Part shown: positions 858 to 8,126 of the stretch, piece after piece
How positions within the stretch are numbered: position 1 is the first letter of the stretch
How the letters are laid out: every line of letters starts with the position of its first letter
Assembly: GCA_027021195.1 (NCBI GenBank)
Contig: JALUUW010000029.1
Coordinates: 1-11,684 of the forward strand
From: Candidatus Pacearchaeota archaeon
GTDB taxonomy: Archaea; Nanobdellota; Nanobdellia; Pacearchaeales; GW2011-AR1
Length of the DNA: 11,684 nucleotides
Reading direction: 5' to 3'
Notes under the pieces: generated by a model
Seen by the model: only the letters and a program-made list of their open reading frames with translations
Told to the model about the DNA's origin: nothing
Databases searched by the model: none
Position numbers and translations under genes: made by a program

Positions 858-1043
858 ATGGGAAAAATCGTTGCTAAGAGTGTTGTTACAAGGAAGCCAG
901 GGTATCTTTACTATGTAGATGCAAAAGGAAATGTCTGTGAAGCAAAAATGGCTCGTGGCGGAAAAAAGAAAAAATCTTCCAAGAAGAAAGCCGCTAAGAA
1001 AACAACAAAGAAAAAAGCAGCAAAGAAGAAAAAAAAGAGATAA
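858..1043 (+). CDS. small basic protein with Lys/Ala-rich C-terminal tail (putative nucleic-acid-binding; no family recognised)
   Basis: 61 aa. The N-terminal ~34 aa look like a small beta-rich module (KSVVTRKPGYLYYVDAKGNVCEAKMARGG). This is followed by a 27-aa tail, KKKKSSKKKAAKKTTKKKAAKKKKKR. It has a strong SD and is followed by T-rich terminator-like tracts. Confidence 0.75.
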   Translation: MGKIVAKSVVTRKPGYLYYVDAKGNVCEAKMARGGKKKKSSKKKAAKKTTKKKAAKKKKKR

Positions 1044-3403: not shown

Positions 3404-3444
3404 GATTTCTGAAGCAGAGCATTAAGTTTTTGTTAGAAAAGAGG

Positions 3445-3939
3445 ATGGTGAAAAAAAACAGCAAAAACAAGAAGAAATCCAATCAGCAAAGCAGGTCTTC
3501 TCTGGATTTTGCCAAACCAGTAACAGGATTAAACCTTAGATTTTATATTTTTCTTTTTTTGGCTATTAGTGTTATTTCATCTTTTTTTTCAGTATTTATT
3601 CTGTTTTCAAAGCCTTTAGAAATAAAGGAAGTTGATGCAAAGTTTATTATAGGAGAGAATCCGGGGTTTGACCTAAATTCGAGCGCGCTTGTTTTCGGAA
3701 GGATTCCTCCGGGAGGATCATCAACAAGAAAGGTAGTCATTGACAATAGTTTTAGCTTTCCAATTGAGGTGAAGATTCTCGCAAGCAGGAATATTGCGGA
3801 ATTTGTTATTGCTCAGCCTGTTACAATCATTGAGGCAGGGAAAAATGCCTCTATTCCAATAAGCGTTTACATTCCGCAGGACAATGGATTTGGGGATTAT
3901 TACGGGAAAATCCGGTTTGAAATCTATAAGTCATCTTAA
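3445..3939 (+). CDS. membrane-anchored protein with extracellular beta-sandwich-like domain (PapD/ASH-like pattern), function unknown
   Basis: A basic N-terminus (MVKKNSKNKKKSNQQSR) is followed by one TM helix (LRFYIFLFLAISVISSFFSVFILF). A ~100-aa domain then shows the alternating pattern LVFGRIPPGGSSTRKVVIDNSFSFPIEVKI...IEAGKNASIPISVYIP...GDYYGKIRFEI, typical of Ig-like sandwiches. The track start at 3430 is a TTG; I prefer ATG 3445, but the start is uncertain. Confidence 0.7.
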   Translation: MVKKNSKNKKKSNQQSRSSLDFAKPVTGLNLRFYIFLFLAISVISSFFSVFILFSKPLEIKEVDAKFIIGENPGFDLNSSALVFGRIPPGGSSTRKVVIDNSFSFPIEVKILASRNIAEFVIAQPVTIIEAGKNASIPISVYIPQDNGFGDYYGKIRFEIYKSS

Positions 3940-3972
3940 GTTTAGTTGCACAGGCAATCAATACAAGAAGTT

Positions 3973-3980
3973 TTTTATAT
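3973..3980 (+). promoter_or_regulatory. TATA-like box (TTTTATAT) for the large surface-protein gene
   Basis: Centre lies 24.5 nt upstream of ATG 4001. This supports 4001 as the real start rather than 3884. Confidence 0.4.
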
Positions 3981-4000
3981 GGGCTTTTCATTTTATTGAA

Positions 4001-6004
4001 ATGAGAAAGACGGTGATTGTTTTAATGAGCTTGTTTATATTGCTTAATCTTTTTATTGTGATTCTCAGCTTTTATTCCCTTAAACCTTCGTCCCTAAGAA
4101 ACTCTTCCGGAACACTAATTACTGGCAGGGGAACTTCGGGGACTGTCGGCCTGGTTATTCTCGGGCCTGAGTTAAATGTGTTTATACACAGCCCTGAAAA
4201 TATCACTTATAACTTCAGCATAGGAGACGATTACATTATTGATTTGAATGTCTCTGCTGATTTTACAGTTGATACTTGGTGGTACAAACTGGAAGACCTT
4301 CGGCACGGCACAACAGTTAATGAGAGCGTTGTCTTTACCCCGAATGACACTATTAATGCTGTAAGGTGGTCAAATAAGATAACTGTCTTTGCAAATGACT
4401 CTTCAGGAAGCTCGGCAAGTTCCAGCGTGATTTTTTTTGTTTCTGTTCCAAACAGCGCTCCTGTTTTAGGGGCAATTGATGATGGGATTTTTGTATGCGA
4501 ATCAAATTCACTTTCTTACTCATTTAGCGCATCAGATGCTGATGAGGATGACCTTACTGCAGACATCAGCCCGAAAAATCCTTTTTTTGTATCTTCTCCA
4601 ACAAGAATTAATCTCACTACAGTCATCTCATCAATTTTCTCAGGAAATCTGACAAAAAGCGATGTTGGAATATACTCTGAGGTAGTATCTGTTTCTGACG
4701 GAGAGTATGTTGATACTAAAAATACAAATATAACTGTTATTGAAATTAACAATGCCCCTTCAGTTGAGAATGTAGGGGTTCAGACAATTTACACACAAGG
4801 AGATAACAGCACTTTCTACAAAGAGGTTCAGGTTAGTGATGTAGAAAACGGAAATCAGAGTTCAGGAAACTTTACATTTAACCTCACATTCCTTAACGGA
4901 AACAAATTCTTTGATATCACTCAATTTGGAGTTATGAATGTCAGTGGGAACGACAGCATAATAGGGGTTTACAATCTTAGTCTTTGCGTGACTGACAAGG
5001 CTATTGAAAACATACACCAAAACATAAGCCTTTGCGGACAAGACGGGCTAAACCAGACAGTGTGCCAGAACTTCAGTCTGACTGTGACTGATGAAAACAG
5101 GGCGCCTACTATTACAAACTACTATCCATCTAATTTTTCATTAAGCATTTCTGGAACAGGAACGCTCTCCTTTAATATAACAAAATACGATCCTGACGGA
5201 ACAATTCCAGATACATACTGGTATGTTGACGGCTTTCTTAAAGAATATGATTCAGGCAGCTCTTATGACAAGTTTGAATACAGCTTTGGTTGCGGAGTTT
5301 CTGGAACTCATACTATTAAAGCAGAGATAACTGACGGATTACTGAATGATTCGGTTGAATGGACTGTAAGTGTTGAAAGAGTTCAATGCCCTCTTCCTTC
5401 TGAAGGAGGCGGGGGAGGTGGAGGCGGCGGAATAGAGGGCTGTGCCACTAACTGGGCTTGTGATACTTGGGAAGTGTGCCAGAATGCAAAGGCAAGTTTG
5501 GAAATAGGTCTTTTGTCAGGAGAGGATTACAGAACTGTTAAGGACTCTTGTTTGGAGCAAAATCTTGATGATTCATCCTGCGGTGTCCAAATAAGAAAAT
5601 GTTTTGACTTAAATTCATGCAATTCAAGCGCAGGGCAGCCTCCAGAGTTTCAGGGATGTTATTATCTTGAAAAACCAAGCTGTTTTGACAATGTTAAGAA
5701 CTGTCACGATGGAGATTGTGAGTTGCTTGTTGATTGCGGAGGCCCATGCGATCCATGCCCGACTTGCTCTGACGGCATACAAAACCAGGGGGAGCAGGAT
5801 GTTGATTGCGGAGGCCCATGCCCATGGAAATGCCCTGCTGAAAAACCCCTTCAAGCAAACAAAATTCAAGTAGTCCTTTTCTGGTCTATTCTTATAATGC
5901 TGGTATTATTGGCAATCATCAAGGTCATAAAGATTGTTAAACTGAGGGAGAAGCTGATTCAAATAAAAAGAAACATAATGAAAAATGAAATTAATGAATT
6001 ATAG
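4001..6004 (+). CDS. large modular cell-surface protein: signal/TM, Ig/cadherin/PKD-like repeats, Gly9 hinge, Cys-rich stalk, C-terminal TM anchor
   Basis: 667 aa from ATG 4001 (MRKTVIVLMSLFILLNLFIVILSFYSL). The ectodomain has ~100-115-aa modules ending in N-x-A-P (NSAP 4451-4462, NNAP 4748-4759, NRAP 5096-5107). One segment is PKD-like (YDPDGTIPDTYWYVDG...GTHTIKAEITDG). I count 24 N-x-S/T sequons by hand. Gly9 lies at 5405-5431. There are 19 Cys between 5387 and 5833, including two VDCGGPC motifs. The TM helix VVLFWSILIMLVLLAIIKVIKIV is followed by a basic tail. Confidence 0.85.
   Translation: MRKTVIVLMSLFILLNLFIVILSFYSLKPSSLRNSSGTLITGRGTSGTVGLVILGPELNVFIHSPENITYNFSIGDDYIIDLNVSADFTVDTWWYKLEDLRHGTTVNESVVFTPNDTINAVRWSNKITVFANDSSGSSASSSVIFFVSVPNSAPVLGAIDDGIFVCESNSLSYSFSASDADEDDLTADISPKNPFFVSSPTRINLTTVISSIFSGNLTKSDVGIYSEVVSVSDGEYVDTKNTNITVIEINNAPSVENVGVQTIYTQGDNSTFYKEVQVSDVENGNQSSGNFTFNLTFLNGNKFFDITQFGVMNVSGNDSIIGVYNLSLCVTDKAIENIHQNISLCGQDGLNQTVCQNFSLTVTDENRAPTITNYYPSNFSLSISGTGTLSFNITKYDPDGTIPDTYWYVDGFLKEYDSGSSYDKFEYSFGCGVSGTHTIKAEITDGLLNDSVEWTVSVERVQCPLPSEGGGGGGGGGIEGCATNWACDTWEVCQNAKASLEIGLLSGEDYRTVKDSCLEQNLDDSSCGVQIRKCFDLNSCNSSAGQPPEFQGCYYLEKPSCFDNVKNCHDGDCELLVDCGGPCDPCPTCSDGIQNQGEQDVDCGGPCPWKCPAEKPLQANKIQVVLFWSILIMLVLLAIIKVIKIVKLREKLIQIKRNIMKNEINEL
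5728..5821 (+). repeat. 22-nt perfect direct repeat (5728-5749 and 5800-5821) encoding the duplicated VDCGGPC motif
   Basis: tgttgattgcggaggcccatgc occurs twice, exactly 72 nt (24 codons) apart, with different flanking bases on both sides. A diverged third copy (attgactgcggaggcaactgtc) lies at 6607-6628 in the next gene. Confidence 0.9.
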
Positions 6005-6926
6005 ACATTTTTTTTTCAGCCTGGTTTTTTTTATTTTGATTATAAGCCTTGCCAGCAGCAAAAGCTCTCCTATTCAGCCTGTAAGTGCAGAAGAAGGATG
6101 TTTTCCCCAATACGAGTGCGGAAACTGGAGCGAGTGCAATAACGATAGCATTCAAACAAGGGTTTGCACAGATAAAAGATGCAATAAAAAAGACATAGTT
6201 GAGAGAAAATTCTGCAATATTCCTAACTGCAAGCCGGCAATTGCCTGCAGCAACTGGAGCAGCTGCAACTACCAGAGAAAGATGAGCGATGTCCTAAGAG
6301 AGAGGCTTGTTTTTGAGGGATATCAGGAAAGAGAGTGCGTTGATTTAGGAGGATGCGCTGAAGAATGGACTGAAACAAGAAGCTGCAGCCTTTCTTTTCC
6401 TGTTGAAATAAAGAAAACAAAGTGGTGTTTTCAGGATTATGTGGAGATATTTGATCTGAATTCAAAAAGGCTTGTCGGGAGAATAACTGAATCAGGAATT
6501 GACAAGGATTTAGGGGCAAAAAGAGTGGATATTCTTTTTTTGACCTCAGACGAGGATGCCTATTGCGATTATTGTTTTGACGGAGTTAGAAATTATGACG
6601 AAACAGGAATTGACTGCGGAGGCAACTGTCCCGAATGCATTGAAAAGGCATATTTTTCTGACTGGCTGTCTTTGGCAATTGCAACTTCATGGCTTTCCTT
6701 TGCAATACTGCTAATCATTTTAATATGGAGCAAATCAAAAAGATATGCATTTTTTAGAGATTCATCTAAAAAAGAAATAGCCAAGAGGAGCATCAGGGAG
6801 AGGATTGCGGGCTTCATCAGAATGGCGAAGATAGGTACAGAAGAAGAGAGGATGCTTGAAGAAAAGATTAAAAAGATTATTGTCGAGAGCCTTTTGTTTT
6901 CAAAAAAGACAAAGGAAAAGCCATAA
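5985..6926 (+). CDS. Cys-rich type-I membrane protein sharing CxNWSxC and DCGGxCxxC modules with the upstream surface protein
   Basis: 313 aa with a signal-like N-terminus (FFFSLVFFILIISLASS). Motifs are CGNWSEC (6117-6137), CSNWSSC (6246-6266) and CFDGVRNYDETGIDCGGNCPEC (6573-6638). The last lies 7 aa before the TM helix WLSLAIATSWLSFAILLIILIW, which is followed by a ~70-aa Lys/Glu-rich cytoplasmic tail. The start overlaps the upstream gene by 20 nt; an alternative ATG is at 5994. Confidence 0.8.
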   Translation: MKLMNYRHFFFSLVFFILIISLASSKSSPIQPVSAEEGCFPQYECGNWSECNNDSIQTRVCTDKRCNKKDIVERKFCNIPNCKPAIACSNWSSCNYQRKMSDVLRERLVFEGYQERECVDLGGCAEEWTETRSCSLSFPVEIKKTKWCFQDYVEIFDLNSKRLVGRITESGIDKDLGAKRVDILFLTSDEDAYCDYCFDGVRNYDETGIDCGGNCPECIEKAYFSDWLSLAIATSWLSFAILLIILIWSKSKRYAFFRDSSKKEIAKRSIRERIAGFIRMAKIGTEEERMLEEKIKKIIVESLLFSKKTKEKP

Positions 6927-6934
6927 TATTTAAT

Positions 6935-7681
6935 TTAAAATGGCTGTCTCGGCATTGGAACAGGATTTCTGAAAGAAGTCAATATCTTTCTTATGATGAA
7001 TCTCGTATTAACAACATCAGAGATTATTGCTGTTAGCACCAGCCTTCCAACAACAACCTTAAATATGCCTTCTTGATAAGGTATTCTTGCAGCAACTGAA
7101 AAATTCTCTATTATTTGGGATATTTCCTCTTTACTCAAAATTATTCCGGTTTTTTTCATTCCTTTAGGAGTTATCACCTTTATATTCTCTTCAGGGCCGT
7201 CGCATTCAATAGATTTTACAAAAGGATCTGCTATGAGGGGGTTTAGCTTTCCAAGATTTATTGGAGTATCGGTAGGAATTGGTTTTAGGTATTGAAATCT
7301 TTGAGGAAGCTTTATGTCAGGAATCGTAAGCACCCTTCTTTTTCCAACCGGTTTTGGCGGAGCTATTAAAGGGTATTTTTTTTCTGTGTTTTTTGGAGAG
7401 GTGTTTTTGGCATAATTGAGTGTTTCTTTTTTTGGAGAGATTTTCTGTCTTATTATTTCCTCAAGCTCCTTTTTTTCATCAGCTTTTTTTTTCTTTTCTT
7501 CTTTCTTTTTTTCCCTGAGGATTCTCTCAAGCTCAAAAACTTCTTTTGTTTTTGAGTTTTTTATCAGTTCTTCTGTAAATTTAAGCAGAAAAAGGGTTCT
7601 AAACTCATTTGATGTTTGTTTGAGCATTTTACAGAGGACTGGTTTTAGGAGAGGATATTGATTTTCTGTACTCTTCTGCAT
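6935..7681 (-). CDS. stand-alone homologue of the N-terminal domain of FlaI/PilB (GspE/VirB11-type) secretion ATPases; no ATPase domain
   Basis: Residues 143-232 (nt 7255..6986) read LGKLNPLIADPFVKSIECDGPEENIKVITPKGMKKTGIILSKEEISQIIENFSVAARIPYQEGIFKVVVGRLVLTAIISDVVNTRFIIRK. This follows the T2SSE N-domain pattern (L..DP.vedIscdG...v.V....g...Tni.fs.EEl...i..la...g..i....P.vd..L..G.R........g..FtIRK). The ORF stops 16 aa later, before any Walker A motif. The probable real start is ATG 7627, 1 nt after the upstream stop. The longest ORF starts at 7681. Confidence 0.7.
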   Translation of the reverse strand: MQKSTENQYPLLKPVLCKMLKQTSNEFRTLFLLKFTEELIKNSKTKEVFELERILREKKKEEKKKKADEKKELEEIIRQKISPKKETLNYAKNTSPKNTEKKYPLIAPPKPVGKRRVLTIPDIKLPQRFQYLKPIPTDTPINLGKLNPLIADPFVKSIECDGPEENIKVITPKGMKKTGIILSKEEISQIIENFSVAARIPYQEGIFKVVVGRLVLTAIISDVVNTRFIIRKILTSFRNPVPMPRQPF

Positions 7682-8126
7682 CTGTTCCCTGTTCTTTTAC
7701 CATCCCATGAGGCGGGAAATTTCCAAATGGATTTACCACTCTTTGGGTAGGAGCAGATGTTTCTTCTTCAGGAATTTTTTCATGCATCAGTGCAATTCCT
7801 TTGGCAATTGTTTTGTTCTGCTCAAGAAGGCTATCTACTTTTTCAAGTATTTTTTTGCTGTCTTTATTGCTTTTATCCATACTGAAATCCTTTTCAGCCA
7901 GCGCCTTTGCGGATATTTCAAAAAGCTCAAGCAATTTTGAGATTTGATTTGCGAGGTTGTCAAAACTAATTGACAAATTAGTCATAACTTTCTGCAATGA
8001 AACAAAATTCTCTATAAGTATATTTTCTATTTTTTTTTCATGAGTGGAATCTGAATGAGAAGTTGTCCTGTGCACTCGCTCTCTTTTAGAAGTTGTTTTT
8101 TTTGAAAGCGTCCTCTTTTTTTTCAT
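7629..8126 (-). CDS. hypothetical coiled-coil protein with basic N-terminus
   Basis: 165 aa. The basic N-terminus MKKKRTLSKKTTSKRERVHR is followed by heptad-like helical segments (IENILIENFVSLQKVMTNLSISFDNLANQISKLLELFEISAKALAEK; ILEKVDSLLEQNKTIAKGIALMHEK) and a Pro/Gly-containing tail. Its stop is tightly coupled to the downstream ATG at 7627. Confidence 0.7.
   Translation of the reverse strand: MKKKRTLSKKTTSKRERVHRTTSHSDSTHEKKIENILIENFVSLQKVMTNLSISFDNLANQISKLLELFEISAKALAEKDFSMDKSNKDSKKILEKVDSLLEQNKTIAKGIALMHEKIPEEETSAPTQRVVNPFGNFPPHGMVKEQGTDAEEYRKSISSPKTSPL

What the first reader, a model, noticed from the sequence alone, without database searches (positions are those of the whole stretch)
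5441..6638. Shared Cys-rich modules: TSP1-like CxNWSxC...QTRxC and disintegrin-like C-[FS]-D-G-x-x-N...DCGGxCxxC next to the membrane
Two motif types recur across both proteins. The first is C-x-x-W-x-x-C: CATNWACDTWEVC (from 5441), CGNWSECNNDSIQTRVCTDKRC (6117-) and CSNWSSC (6246-6266). The WSxC...QTRxC spacing recalls thrombospondin type-1 repeats. The second is CFDNVKNCHDGDCELLVDCGGPCDPC (5681-), CSDGIQNQGEQDVDCGGPCPWKC (5765-5833) and CFDGVRNYDETGIDCGGNCPEC (6573-6638). This one recalls the CGNG..E.GEECDCG start of disintegrin-type or myxococcal Cys-rich repeats. In both proteins the last DCGGxCxxC ends within about 7-14 residues of the TM helix, so it behaves as a conserved juxtamembrane module. 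Disulfide-rich extracellular modules of this kind are poorly characterised in archaea. They could define a family-specific stalk or a recognition or sorting element.
Basis: partly seen in the sequence, partly recalled or inferred. Interest (0 to 1): 0.65.

Follow-up and report, generated by a model that had tools for sequence, protein, structure and literature searches.

The report
Disulfide-rich stalk modules of DPANN surface proteins
Two adjacent archaeal surface-protein genes carry two real, widespread but uncatalogued cysteine-rich repeat modules, one a shortened thrombospondin-type-1-like repeat and one a 24-residue four-cysteine unit with no solved structural relative, which together form a membrane-proximal cassette in many DPANN archaea.

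Summary
The motifs are at the stated coordinates and are far beyond chance. Both belong to large repeat families, not to these two genes only.

**W-C module.** The C-x-x-W-x-x-C motif is the core of a 44-residue, six-Cys module, C-x-P/E-x-W-x-C-x2-W-S-x-C...G-x-Q-T-R-x-C-x-D-x-N-x-C-G-T-x3-K-P-x3-Q-x-C. An exhaustive search found 2,612 cluster representatives, with tandem arrays of up to 13 copies. Three weak but concordant lines link it to thrombospondin type-1 repeats. It fails formal TSP1 membership.

**DCGG module.** The C-x-D-G-x2-N-x2-E-x3-D-C-G-G-x-C-x2-C motif is a 24-residue, four-Cys tandem repeat. It occurs at 571 or more loci in species-representative genomes: DPANN, Altiarchaeota, Bacteroidota, Polyangiaceae. 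It models confidently (pLDDT 89) and has no Foldseek or sequence match in the PDB. The disintegrin and myxococcal readings are not supported.

**Cassette.** In archaea the modules combine as W-C, then DCGG(n), then a TM helix: 49 of 74 ORFs have both neighbours. In bacteria DCGG has neither a W-C module nor a following TM helix.

**Best reading.** A disulfide-stapled stalk that holds varied ectodomains off the membrane. The structure is partly shown; the function is inferred.

The parts
3430..3939 (+). Upstream partner gene: a small protein with an N-terminal TM helix and one Ig-like domain (169-aa ORF; database aa).
   Evidence: Weak Pfam Ig-like hits to CFAP65, Cep192 and HYDIN. Homologues lie directly upstream, on the same strand, of the cassette-bearing gene in 21 other genome loci.
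4001..6004 (+). Protein A (667 aa from Met40 of the 3884..6004 ORF), a type I surface protein. Order of parts: signal/TM, about 450 aa of cadherin-like beta repeats with 23 N-x-S/T sequons, a Gly9 linker, one W-C module, two DCGG modules, a TM helix and a basic tail.
   Evidence: Gene call on the source contig. About 30 orthologues of 574-704 aa occur in Woese-, Pace- and Nanoarchaeota MAGs. Sub-threshold Cadherin_4 and Big_9 hits in orthologues. Sequon count.
5402..5434 (+). Gly9 flexible linker (EGGGGGGGGGI) between the ectodomain and the cassette.
   Evidence: Sequence. Conserved as a Gly run in orthologues.
5441..5659 (+). W-C module of protein A (C520-C592). It has the six core Cys plus a roughly 30-residue loop insertion carrying an extra Cys pair.
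   Evidence: Alignment A1. HMM hit at 62.4 bits. The same inserted form occurs in all A orthologues.
5681..5758 (+). DCGG module 1 of A (CFDNVKNCHDGDCELLVDCGGPCDPC), with an extra CHDGDC Cys pair in the loop.
   Evidence: AF2 model with pLDDT 93-94 over this part.
5765..5833 (+). DCGG module 2 of A (CSDGIQNQGEQDVDCGGPCPWKC), canonical form.
5864..5920 (+). C-terminal TM helix of A, 10 residues after the last Cys. It is followed by a Lys/Arg-rich tail (5921-6001).
   Evidence: Hydropathy and sequence. The positive-inside rule places the Cys modules outside the cell (inference).
5994..6926 (+). Protein B (310 aa; ORF from 5985). It overlaps the end of A by 11 nt. Order of parts: signal peptide, two W-C modules, a roughly 60-aa beta middle domain, one DCGG module, a TM helix and a 65-aa tail.
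   Evidence: The same architecture occurs in 16 homologues.
6099..6215 (+). W-C module 1 of B (C39-C77), short canonical loop.
   Evidence: AF2 pLDDT about 90 with three strands.
6228..6386 (+). W-C module 2 of B (C82-C134), with an 18-residue loop insertion.
6387..6563 (+). Middle beta domain of B (..EIKKTKWC..DYVEIFD....LVGRI....VDI..).
   Evidence: Conserved in the B-like family (alignment A4). AF2 predicts strands at pLDDT about 75. No family hit.
6564..6638 (+). DCGG module of B (CDYCFDGVRNYDETGIDCGGNCPEC).
6663..6728 (+). TM helix of B, 8 residues after the last Cys.

Best explanation
The region encodes the membrane-proximal parts of two co-transcribed type I surface proteins of a DPANN (Woese/Pacearchaeota-like) archaeon. 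These parts are built from two independent extracellular mini-domains.

**W-C module.** About 44 residues, six Cys, three strands. It is a shortened, divergent thrombospondin-type-1-like repeat. Strand A carries two Trp, strand B carries Q-T-R, and strand C ends in K-P-x3-Q-x-C. An extra disulfide (C2-C4) ties strand A to strand B.

**DCGG module.** About 24 residues, four Cys, no regular secondary structure. D, N, E and D are invariant next to C-G-G. This pattern suggests a small double-disulfide knot, possibly with a cation site.

**Cassette.** In DPANN archaea the two are joined as one W-C module, then 1-7 DCGG modules, then a TM helix.

**Most likely role.** The cassette acts as a rigid, protease- and heat-resistant stalk. 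It anchors interchangeable ectodomains (cadherin-like repeats in A) and holds them a fixed distance above the membrane. It may sit next to the small Ig-like membrane protein encoded just upstream.

**What is shown and what is inferred.** Shown: module boundaries, recurrence, cassette order, outside topology by sequence logic, C2-C4 coupling, and confident models. Inferred: disulfide formation, rigidity, the stalk role, any cation binding, and any contact with the upstream protein.
For: **Recurrence**
- The W-C profile finds 2,612 representatives at E<=1e-3 and 526 at E<=1e-10. Arrays reach 13 copies (11 to 13 in the top-scoring proteins), most often 44 residues apart.
- The DCGG profile finds 602 proteins in the word-indexed search. 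It finds 571 or more loci among species-representative genomes.

**Cassette**
- Of 74 archaeal DCGG ORFs, 50 have a W-C module ending 6 residues or fewer before the first DCGG.
- 53 have a TM helix within 25 residues after the last DCGG, and 49 have both.
- N-terminal parts differ between families.

**Disulfide logic**
- Of 641 W-C copies, 590 keep all six Cys and 45 lack exactly C2 and C4. Single losses are nearly absent.
- 507 of 531 DCGG copies keep all four Cys.

**Fold**
- W-C modules in the B model have pLDDT about 90 and three strands each.
- The DCGG pair model has pLDDT 88.9.

**TSR link**
- a 4-Cys variant aligns over profile positions 1-50 of 55 of TSP1_ADAMTS, at 18.6 bits.
- hhalign.
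- properdin and Sema5A TSRs are the top Foldseek hits.

**Extracytoplasmic setting**
- Signal/TM at the N-terminus, 23 sequons, and a basic tail after the TM helix.
- Bacterial relatives are lipoproteins or T9SS cargo.

**Upstream partner**
- Conserved in 21 loci.
Against: - No experiment supports the stalk role. It rests on position and composition alone.
- The TSR link never reaches a curated threshold: Pfam 18.6 bits against a gathering score of 23.8, Foldseek E 0.09, hhalign about 50%. The window's own three copies give no Pfam hit even at E<=10.
- In B a 60-residue domain separates W-C from DCGG, so the cassette is not rigidly fixed.
- In bacteria DCGG works without a membrane anchor nearby, so juxtamembrane placement is not intrinsic to the module.
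- Many DPANN archaea are anaerobes. No disulfide-forming enzyme is seen in the 21 kb around the genes.
Confidence: 0.55

Rival explanations
1. The modules are primarily adhesion or recognition elements rather than passive spacers. Like eukaryotic TSRs they would bind glycans or proteins on a host or partner cell, serving the episymbiotic lifestyle of DPANN and CPR organisms. The tandem arrays would be multivalent binding surfaces.
For: - The TSR resemblance. TSRs are treated in the literature as adhesive modules (PMC3417536).
- Long W-C arrays of 5-13 copies occupy large parts of many proteins.
- They occur in small-genome lineages, and some carry PG_binding_1.
Against: - In the window and in 49 of 74 archaeal ORFs the modules sit at the membrane-proximal end, the position least accessible to a partner surface.
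- Surface-exposed residues of the repeats are mostly Thr, Ser and Asn with low conservation. The conserved positions are the core ones: Cys, Trp, Arg, Asp, Pro.
- No ligand information exists.
Confidence: 0.25
2. The DCGG module is a metal-binding Cys cluster (Zn or Fe, or a Ca site with Cys ligating a second metal) rather than a double-disulfide knot. Under this reading it serves metal capture or redox sensing at the membrane surface.
For: - C-x2-C and C-x3-C spacings.
- 29 of 66 module pairs give weak Pfam hits to FeoB_associated, a Cys-rich membrane protein family (best E 0.027), plus scattered zinc-ribbon and RING hits.
- One source annotated a fragment as a Zn-ribbon protein.
- Invariant D, N, E and D.
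- Likely anaerobic hosts.
Against: - All such hits are far below the curated cut-offs and cover only the C-G-G-x-C-x2-C stretch.
- The proteins are extracytoplasmic in both archaea and Bacteroidota, where paired Cys in tandem repeats usually form disulfides.
- Four copies lack exactly C2 and C4 (pattern C.C.), which hints at pairwise bridges, but the counts are small.
Confidence: 0.1
3. The DCGG-plus-TM end is a sorting or processing signal, analogous to PGF-CTERM/archaeosortase or LPXTG/sortase. It would be recognised and cleaved so that the protein is attached to lipid or to the cell wall.
For: The tripartite look of motif, TM helix and basic tail at the C-terminus of A and its orthologues.
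Against: - The module also occurs in the middle of proteins, in 2-17 tandem copies, and at N-termini.
- Many archaeal members continue for 170-350 residues after the TM helix.
- No NCBIfam sorting-signal model hits the window's proteins at E<=1.
- No sortase- or archaeosortase-like gene lies on the 21-kb locus.
- The linker between the last Cys and the TM helix is not conserved.
Confidence: 0.05

Closest known systems
Thrombospondin type-1 repeat (TSR; Pfam TSP_1 PF00090, TSP1_ADAMTS PF19030)
   Same: - A small three-stranded extracellular Cys-rich repeat used in tandem.
- Strand A with Trp in a W-S-x-C context, a Gly turn, then strand B with Q/x-T-R-x-C. The tail K-P-x3-Q-x-C resembles the ADAMTS-type TSR end (that last comparison is from memory).
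- The only Pfam family repeatedly hit.
- The best hhalign and Foldseek leads.
   Different: - About 44 instead of 55-60 residues.
- Trp spacing W-x4-W, with a Cys between, instead of W-x2-W.
- One conserved Arg instead of an R-x-R ladder.
- It lacks the S-x-T-C-G Cys and its partner.
- It has two extra N-terminal Cys and a C2-C4 bridge.
- It stays below every curated threshold.
- It is found in DPANN archaea and PG_binding_1-bearing bacteria rather than in animals and apicomplexans.
NCBIfam NF033662, acidic double-disulfide repeat (acid_disulf_rpt)
   Same: A short acidic tandem repeat of about 32 residues with four Cys. One DCGG lipoprotein (P0017) gives a weak hit over profile positions 3-22.
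   Different: The score is 18.6 bits against a cut-off of 41. Proteins with 10-17 DCGG copies do not hit it at E<=0.1, so DCGG is not covered by that model.
Small Ca-binding Cys-rich modules (LDL-receptor class A, Notch/LNR), and disintegrin or Myxococcus Cys-rich repeats
   Same: Short extracellular modules whose fold depends on disulfides, with clustered Asp, Asn and Glu. They are used as tandem spacers.
   Different: A pLDDT-89 model has no Foldseek match in the PDB. There is no HMM hit to Ldl_recept_a, Notch, Disintegrin, DUF4215 or TIGR02232 for DCGG. DCGG has four Cys in 24 residues, against six in 35-40.
Membrane-proximal stalks of archaeal surface-layer proteins (for example the SlaB-type stalk, or the Thr-rich linker plus C-terminal anchor of haloarchaeal S-layer glycoprotein)
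   Same: A C-terminal TM anchor preceded by a dedicated spacer that carries a glycosylated ectodomain. This comparison rests on general knowledge and was not tested here.
   Different: Here the spacer is made of disulfide-rich mini-domains, not coiled coil or Thr-rich linker. Whether A forms a lattice is unknown.

Membership tests
Thrombospondin type-1 repeat (Pfam TSP_1 / TSP1_ADAMTS) | Scores above the curated Pfam gathering threshold. | tested here: not met
   The window's three copies give no hit at E<=10. Among 61 family copies, 6 hit TSP1_ADAMTS, best 18.6 bits against a gathering score of 23.8.
Thrombospondin type-1 repeat (Pfam TSP_1 / TSP1_ADAMTS) | W-x2-W(-x2-W) Trp ladder on strand A, intercalated with an R-x-R ladder on strand B. 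| tested here: not met
   Column frequencies in 641 copies: W (95%) and W (97%) are five positions apart with a Cys between. There is a single Arg (90%) preceded by Gln (79%). Stacking geometry could not be inspected.
Thrombospondin type-1 repeat (Pfam TSP_1 / TSP1_ADAMTS) | Elongated three-stranded fold. | tested here: inconclusive
   AF2 gives three strands per module at pLDDT about 90. The top two Foldseek PDB hits are properdin 8q6r_D and Sema5A TSR3-4 8ckk_A, but with E 0.09-0.24 and low TM on the multi-domain model.
Thrombospondin type-1 repeat (Pfam TSP_1 / TSP1_ADAMTS) | Six Cys with TSR connectivity (C1-C5, C2-C6, C3-C4 in group 1; from memory). | tested here: not met
   Co-loss of C2 and C4 in 45 of 641 copies implies a C2-C4 bridge between strands A and B. 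The TSR S-x-T-C-G Cys is absent.
Thrombospondin type-1 repeat (Pfam TSP_1 / TSP1_ADAMTS) | Profile-profile similarity to TSR alignments. | tested here: inconclusive
   hhalign gives probability 42-51% and P 1.6-2.6e-4 over 13-17 columns. Controls give probability 1% or less.
Disintegrin domain | Pfam Disintegrin HMM match and disintegrin fold. | tested here: not met
   No hit at E<=10 for the window's modules or for 66 module pairs. No Foldseek PDB match at E<=10.
Myxococcus cysteine-rich repeat (TIGR02232 / DUF4215) | HMM match to C-G-N-G-x2-E-x-G-E-E-C-D-D-G-N type repeat. | tested here: not met
   No NCBIfam or Pfam hit for the window's proteins or for multi-copy DCGG proteins.
NF033662 acidic double-disulfide repeat | Score above the curated cut-off (41 bits). 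| tested here: not met
   1 of 14 DCGG proteins scanned gave 18.6 bits. Proteins with 10-17 copies gave nothing.
FeoB-associated Cys-rich membrane protein (PF12669) | Score above the gathering threshold (27 bits), in a small membrane protein. | tested here: not met
   29 of 66 module pairs gave weak hits, best E 0.027. Searches show about 10-11 bits, covering only the C-G-G-x-C-x2-C stretch.
PGF-CTERM / archaeosortase-type C-terminal sorting signal | Signature motif adjacent to the TM helix, detected by NCBIfam sorting-signal models, with a sortase gene in the genome. | tested here: not met
   No NCBIfam hit at E<=1. No such gene on the 21-kb locus. The whole genome was not available.

The most novel reading that the evidence does not exclude
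The W-C module is a true prokaryotic branch of the thrombospondin-type-1 superfamily. It is abundant in DPANN archaea and in CPR-like bacteria. This would mean that TSRs, usually treated as an animal and apicomplexan adhesion domain, have an ancient or laterally shared prokaryotic pool. Its partner DCGG is a new double-disulfide mini-fold, possibly cation-binding. The W-C, DCGG(n), TM cassette, together with the conserved upstream Ig-like membrane protein, would be a lineage-wide cell-surface anchoring system of DPANN archaea.
Probability: 0.3. Interest if true: 0.65.

Novelty: new variant of a known kind. Interest (0 to 1): 0.5.

Why it matters
DPANN archaea and similar small-celled organisms live attached to other cells, and their surface proteins are almost entirely unannotated. 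Naming two modules that recur in thousands of these proteins gives annotators handles for a large amount of 'hypothetical' sequence. So does the fixed order in which they meet the membrane.

If the W-C module is confirmed as a TSR relative, it bears on where a classic 'animal' adhesion domain came from. The DCGG unit models confidently and has no solved counterpart. At 24 residues it is an easy target for structure determination and a possible compact scaffold.

The conserved gene pair (small Ig-like membrane protein plus cassette protein) gives a concrete, testable unit for studying how these archaea build their surface.

Tried and rejected
- **Pfam and NCBIfam on the window's proteins and excised modules.** No family hit. 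The only result on B was a chance T4SS_pilin hit on the TM helix.
- **PDB sequence searches.** Queries were P0011 and the W-C and DCGG profiles. Only chance hits: a designed TM protein, a 24-aa toxin (HSTX-I, E 0.066) and a mitoribosomal Zn-ribbon protein (E 0.99).
- **Foldseek of the DCGG model against PDB and BFVD.** Nothing found.
- **PF28492.** It is listed for one DCGG fragment (P0114) and is absent from the local Pfam copy. Because 119 of the 120 listed DCGG proteins lack it, it probably covers the beta-helix part that follows the repeats, not the repeat itself.
- **A-B gene pair as a conserved unit.** Kept only in the closest relative (L082). No B-like gene follows 30 or more other A orthologues. 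The more distant B homologue P0004 follows an unrelated Lys-rich coiled-coil protein.
- **DCGG in viral contigs.** Only 3 weak loci.
- **The listing of cluster members for ten W-C proteins.** No organism names returned.
- **Five literature searches.** No description of either module.
- **Cys co-loss analysis for DCGG.** Too few variant copies to fix the connectivity.


Full report
**Setting**

The window is AT-rich (about 38% GC). It carries archaeal housekeeping genes: Kae1/TsaD, ribosomal L7Ae and S28e, and an ORF that I read as ribosomal L24e. It comes from a 31-kb metagenomic contig (ENA ERZ27262676). The finding covers the 3' third of protein A and most of protein B.
- Protein A: gene call 4001..6004, 667 aa. 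The mechanical ORF starts at 3884.
- Protein B: 5994..6926, 310 aa.
- B overlaps A by 11 nt on the same strand.

Residue shuffling shows they are not chance. Expected counts are 0.03, 0.0 and 0.004 for the three patterns, against 3, 2 and 3 observed. None of 20,000 shuffles reached the observed counts. Homologues keep the Cys and signature residues invariant.

**The W motif is part of a larger module**

Aligning copies from A, B and their first homologues gives a six-Cys unit, here called W-C (A1):

C1-x-P/E-x-W-x-C2-x2-W-S-x-C3-[loop]-G-x-Q-T-R-x-C4-x-D-x-N-x-C5-G-T-x3-K-P-x3-Q-x-C6

- B has two copies: one with a short loop and one with an 18-residue loop.
- A has one copy with a roughly 30-residue loop that holds an extra Cys pair.
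- An exhaustive profile search of 1.84 billion cluster representatives found 2,612 proteins at E<=1e-3, 526 at E<=1e-10 and 32 at E<=1e-30. HMMER matched up to 13 stretches per protein.
- Successive copies are most often 44 residues apart.
- Partner domains include CARDB, an archaeal S-layer domain and PG_binding_1.
- One 12-copy protein sits between uvrC and uvrA and carries PG_binding_1, so the module also occurs in bacteria.
- No Pfam or NCBIfam model covers the repeat above threshold, even in 7-11-copy proteins.

**Disulfide evidence for W-C**

Among 641 distinct copies, 590 keep all six Cys and 45 lack exactly C2 and C4. Single losses are almost absent. This argues for a C2-C4 bridge. Mapping onto TSRs suggests C3-C6 and C1-C5 for the rest, which is inference.

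**Is W-C TSP1-like?**

Three independent but weak lines agree.
1. When 61 single copies were scanned against all 24,736 Pfam families, the only family hit by more than one copy was TSP1_ADAMTS, with 6 copies and best E 0.0024. The best copy is a 4-Cys variant. It aligns over profile positions 1-50 of 55 at 18.6 bits, against a gathering score of 23.8.
3. In the AlphaFold model of the B ectodomain, each W-C module has three strands at pLDDT about 90. The two best Foldseek PDB hits out of 350,542 chains are properdin and semaphorin-5A TSR3-4. Both are non-significant (E 0.09 and 0.24) on this flexible multi-domain model.

Formal TSP1 membership fails on threshold, Trp spacing, the Arg ladder and Cys pattern. 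I therefore call W-C a shortened TSR-like variant, with roughly two-in-three confidence that it shares the fold.

**The DCGG motif is a 24-residue tandem repeat**

The consensus is C1-x-D-G-[IV]-x-N-x2-E-x2-[VI]-D-C2-G-G-x-C3-x2-C4-x2 (A2, A3, A5).
- In 531 copies, E is 100% conserved, D-C-G-G 97-99%, D 94% and N 91%. All four Cys are present in 507 copies.
- The word-indexed search found 602 proteins.
These come from Woese-, Pace-, Nano- and Micrarchaeota, Altiarchaeota, MAGs labelled Methanosarcinales, Saprospiraceae, Flavobacteriales and other Bacteroidota, and a Polyangiaceae genome.
- A model of A's module pair with 66 aligned sequences is confident: mean pLDDT 88.9, and 93 or more over residues 1-50. 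It has no regular secondary structure.
- The model has no Foldseek match at E<=10 in PDB or BFVD. It has no PDB sequence relative.
- Disintegrin, the myxococcal repeat, LDL-A and LNR are not detected.
- The only recurrent Pfam signal is a far sub-threshold match of C-G-G-x-C-x2-C to FeoB_associated.
- One lipoprotein hits NF033662 weakly, but multi-copy proteins do not.

**The two modules form a cassette in archaea**

Results:
- Of 74 archaeal ORFs with DCGG, 50 have a single W-C module ending 6 residues or fewer before the first DCGG.
- 53 have a TM helix within 25 residues after the last DCGG. 49 have both.
- All 12 bacterial ORFs lack both features. Some of these are T9SS cargo with up to 17 copies, and one has DNRLRE and fibrinogen-like domains.
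- Other bacterial proteins carry the repeat right after a lipobox.

Protein A is the commonest archaeal form. About 30 orthologues of 574-704 aa share the same layout. Protein B is a rarer form in which a conserved 60-residue beta domain sits between W-C and DCGG.

**Context**

- The A-B pair is kept only in the nearest relative.
- The small TM plus Ig-like protein upstream of A (3430..3939) is conserved upstream of cassette genes of two different families in 21 loci.
- No oxidoreductase or sortase-like gene lies on the surrounding 21 kb.

**Interpretation**

Several features point to a disulfide-stapled stalk that anchors and spaces variable ectodomains:
- the position next to the membrane;
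- conservation confined to core residues;
- modular copy number;
- the Gly9 hinge before the cassette in A;
- use of the DCGG repeat as a spacer in unrelated bacterial secreted proteins.

A direct adhesive role, metal binding by DCGG and a sorting-signal role remain possible, in that order of likelihood.

**Literature**

Five full-text searches found no description of either module. A review treats TSP1 as an animal-type domain acquired by apicomplexans (PMC3417536).

**Verdict**

- The modules are widespread and uncatalogued rather than specific to these genes.
- This is a solid domain-discovery lead of moderate interest.

Noticed in passing
window 3430-3939 (+): A small protein with an N-terminal TM helix and one Ig-like domain. 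It has homologues directly upstream, on the same strand, of W-C/DCGG/TM cassette genes in 21 genome loci from two different cassette families. This is a conserved gene pair of unknown function.
   Followed up: partly
L037, L041, L042, L055, L060, L067, L077 (cassette ORFs): A second archaeal family has W-C, then 3-6 DCGG modules, then a TM helix. This is followed by a helical, Lys/Glu-rich tail of about 200-250 residues, presumably cytoplasmic, with conserved motifs such as Y-S-G-Y-K-I-x-K-P-E-L. In L047, L049, L067 and L077 a large cadherin-like repeat protein is encoded downstream; the downstream ORFs in L037, L055 and L060 were not examined.
   Followed up: partly
window 6935-7681 (-): A 248-aa protein with a weak NCBIfam match (E 0.0045) to the N-terminal part of the archaellum ATPase FlaI. 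It has no ATPase domain. The overlapping 165-aa ORF at 7629-8126 (-) has no family hit.
   Followed up: no
window 858-1043 (+): A 61-aa protein with a conserved-looking N-terminal half (KPGYLYYVDAKGNV) and a long Lys/Ala-rich tail. It has no precomputed Pfam family on the source contig.
   Followed up: no
L001 438-3318 (upstream of the window on the source contig): A cluster of a MoxR-type AAA ATPase, a DUF58 protein and VWA/BatA proteins lies a few kb upstream on the same contig.
   Followed up: no
P0076 and P0102 (proteins): Two DCGG-repeat fragments come from eukaryote transcriptome or proteome sets (eukprot entries 'Awhi' and Rhodomonas salina). They could be contamination or genuine eukaryotic copies.
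   Followed up: no
L089 3334-12714: Two adjacent giant proteins (1,934 and 1,174 aa) carry PG_binding_1 and Kre9_KNH hits. The first also has 12 W-C copies. They sit between uvrC and uvrA on a 64-kb bacterial-type contig.
   Followed up: no
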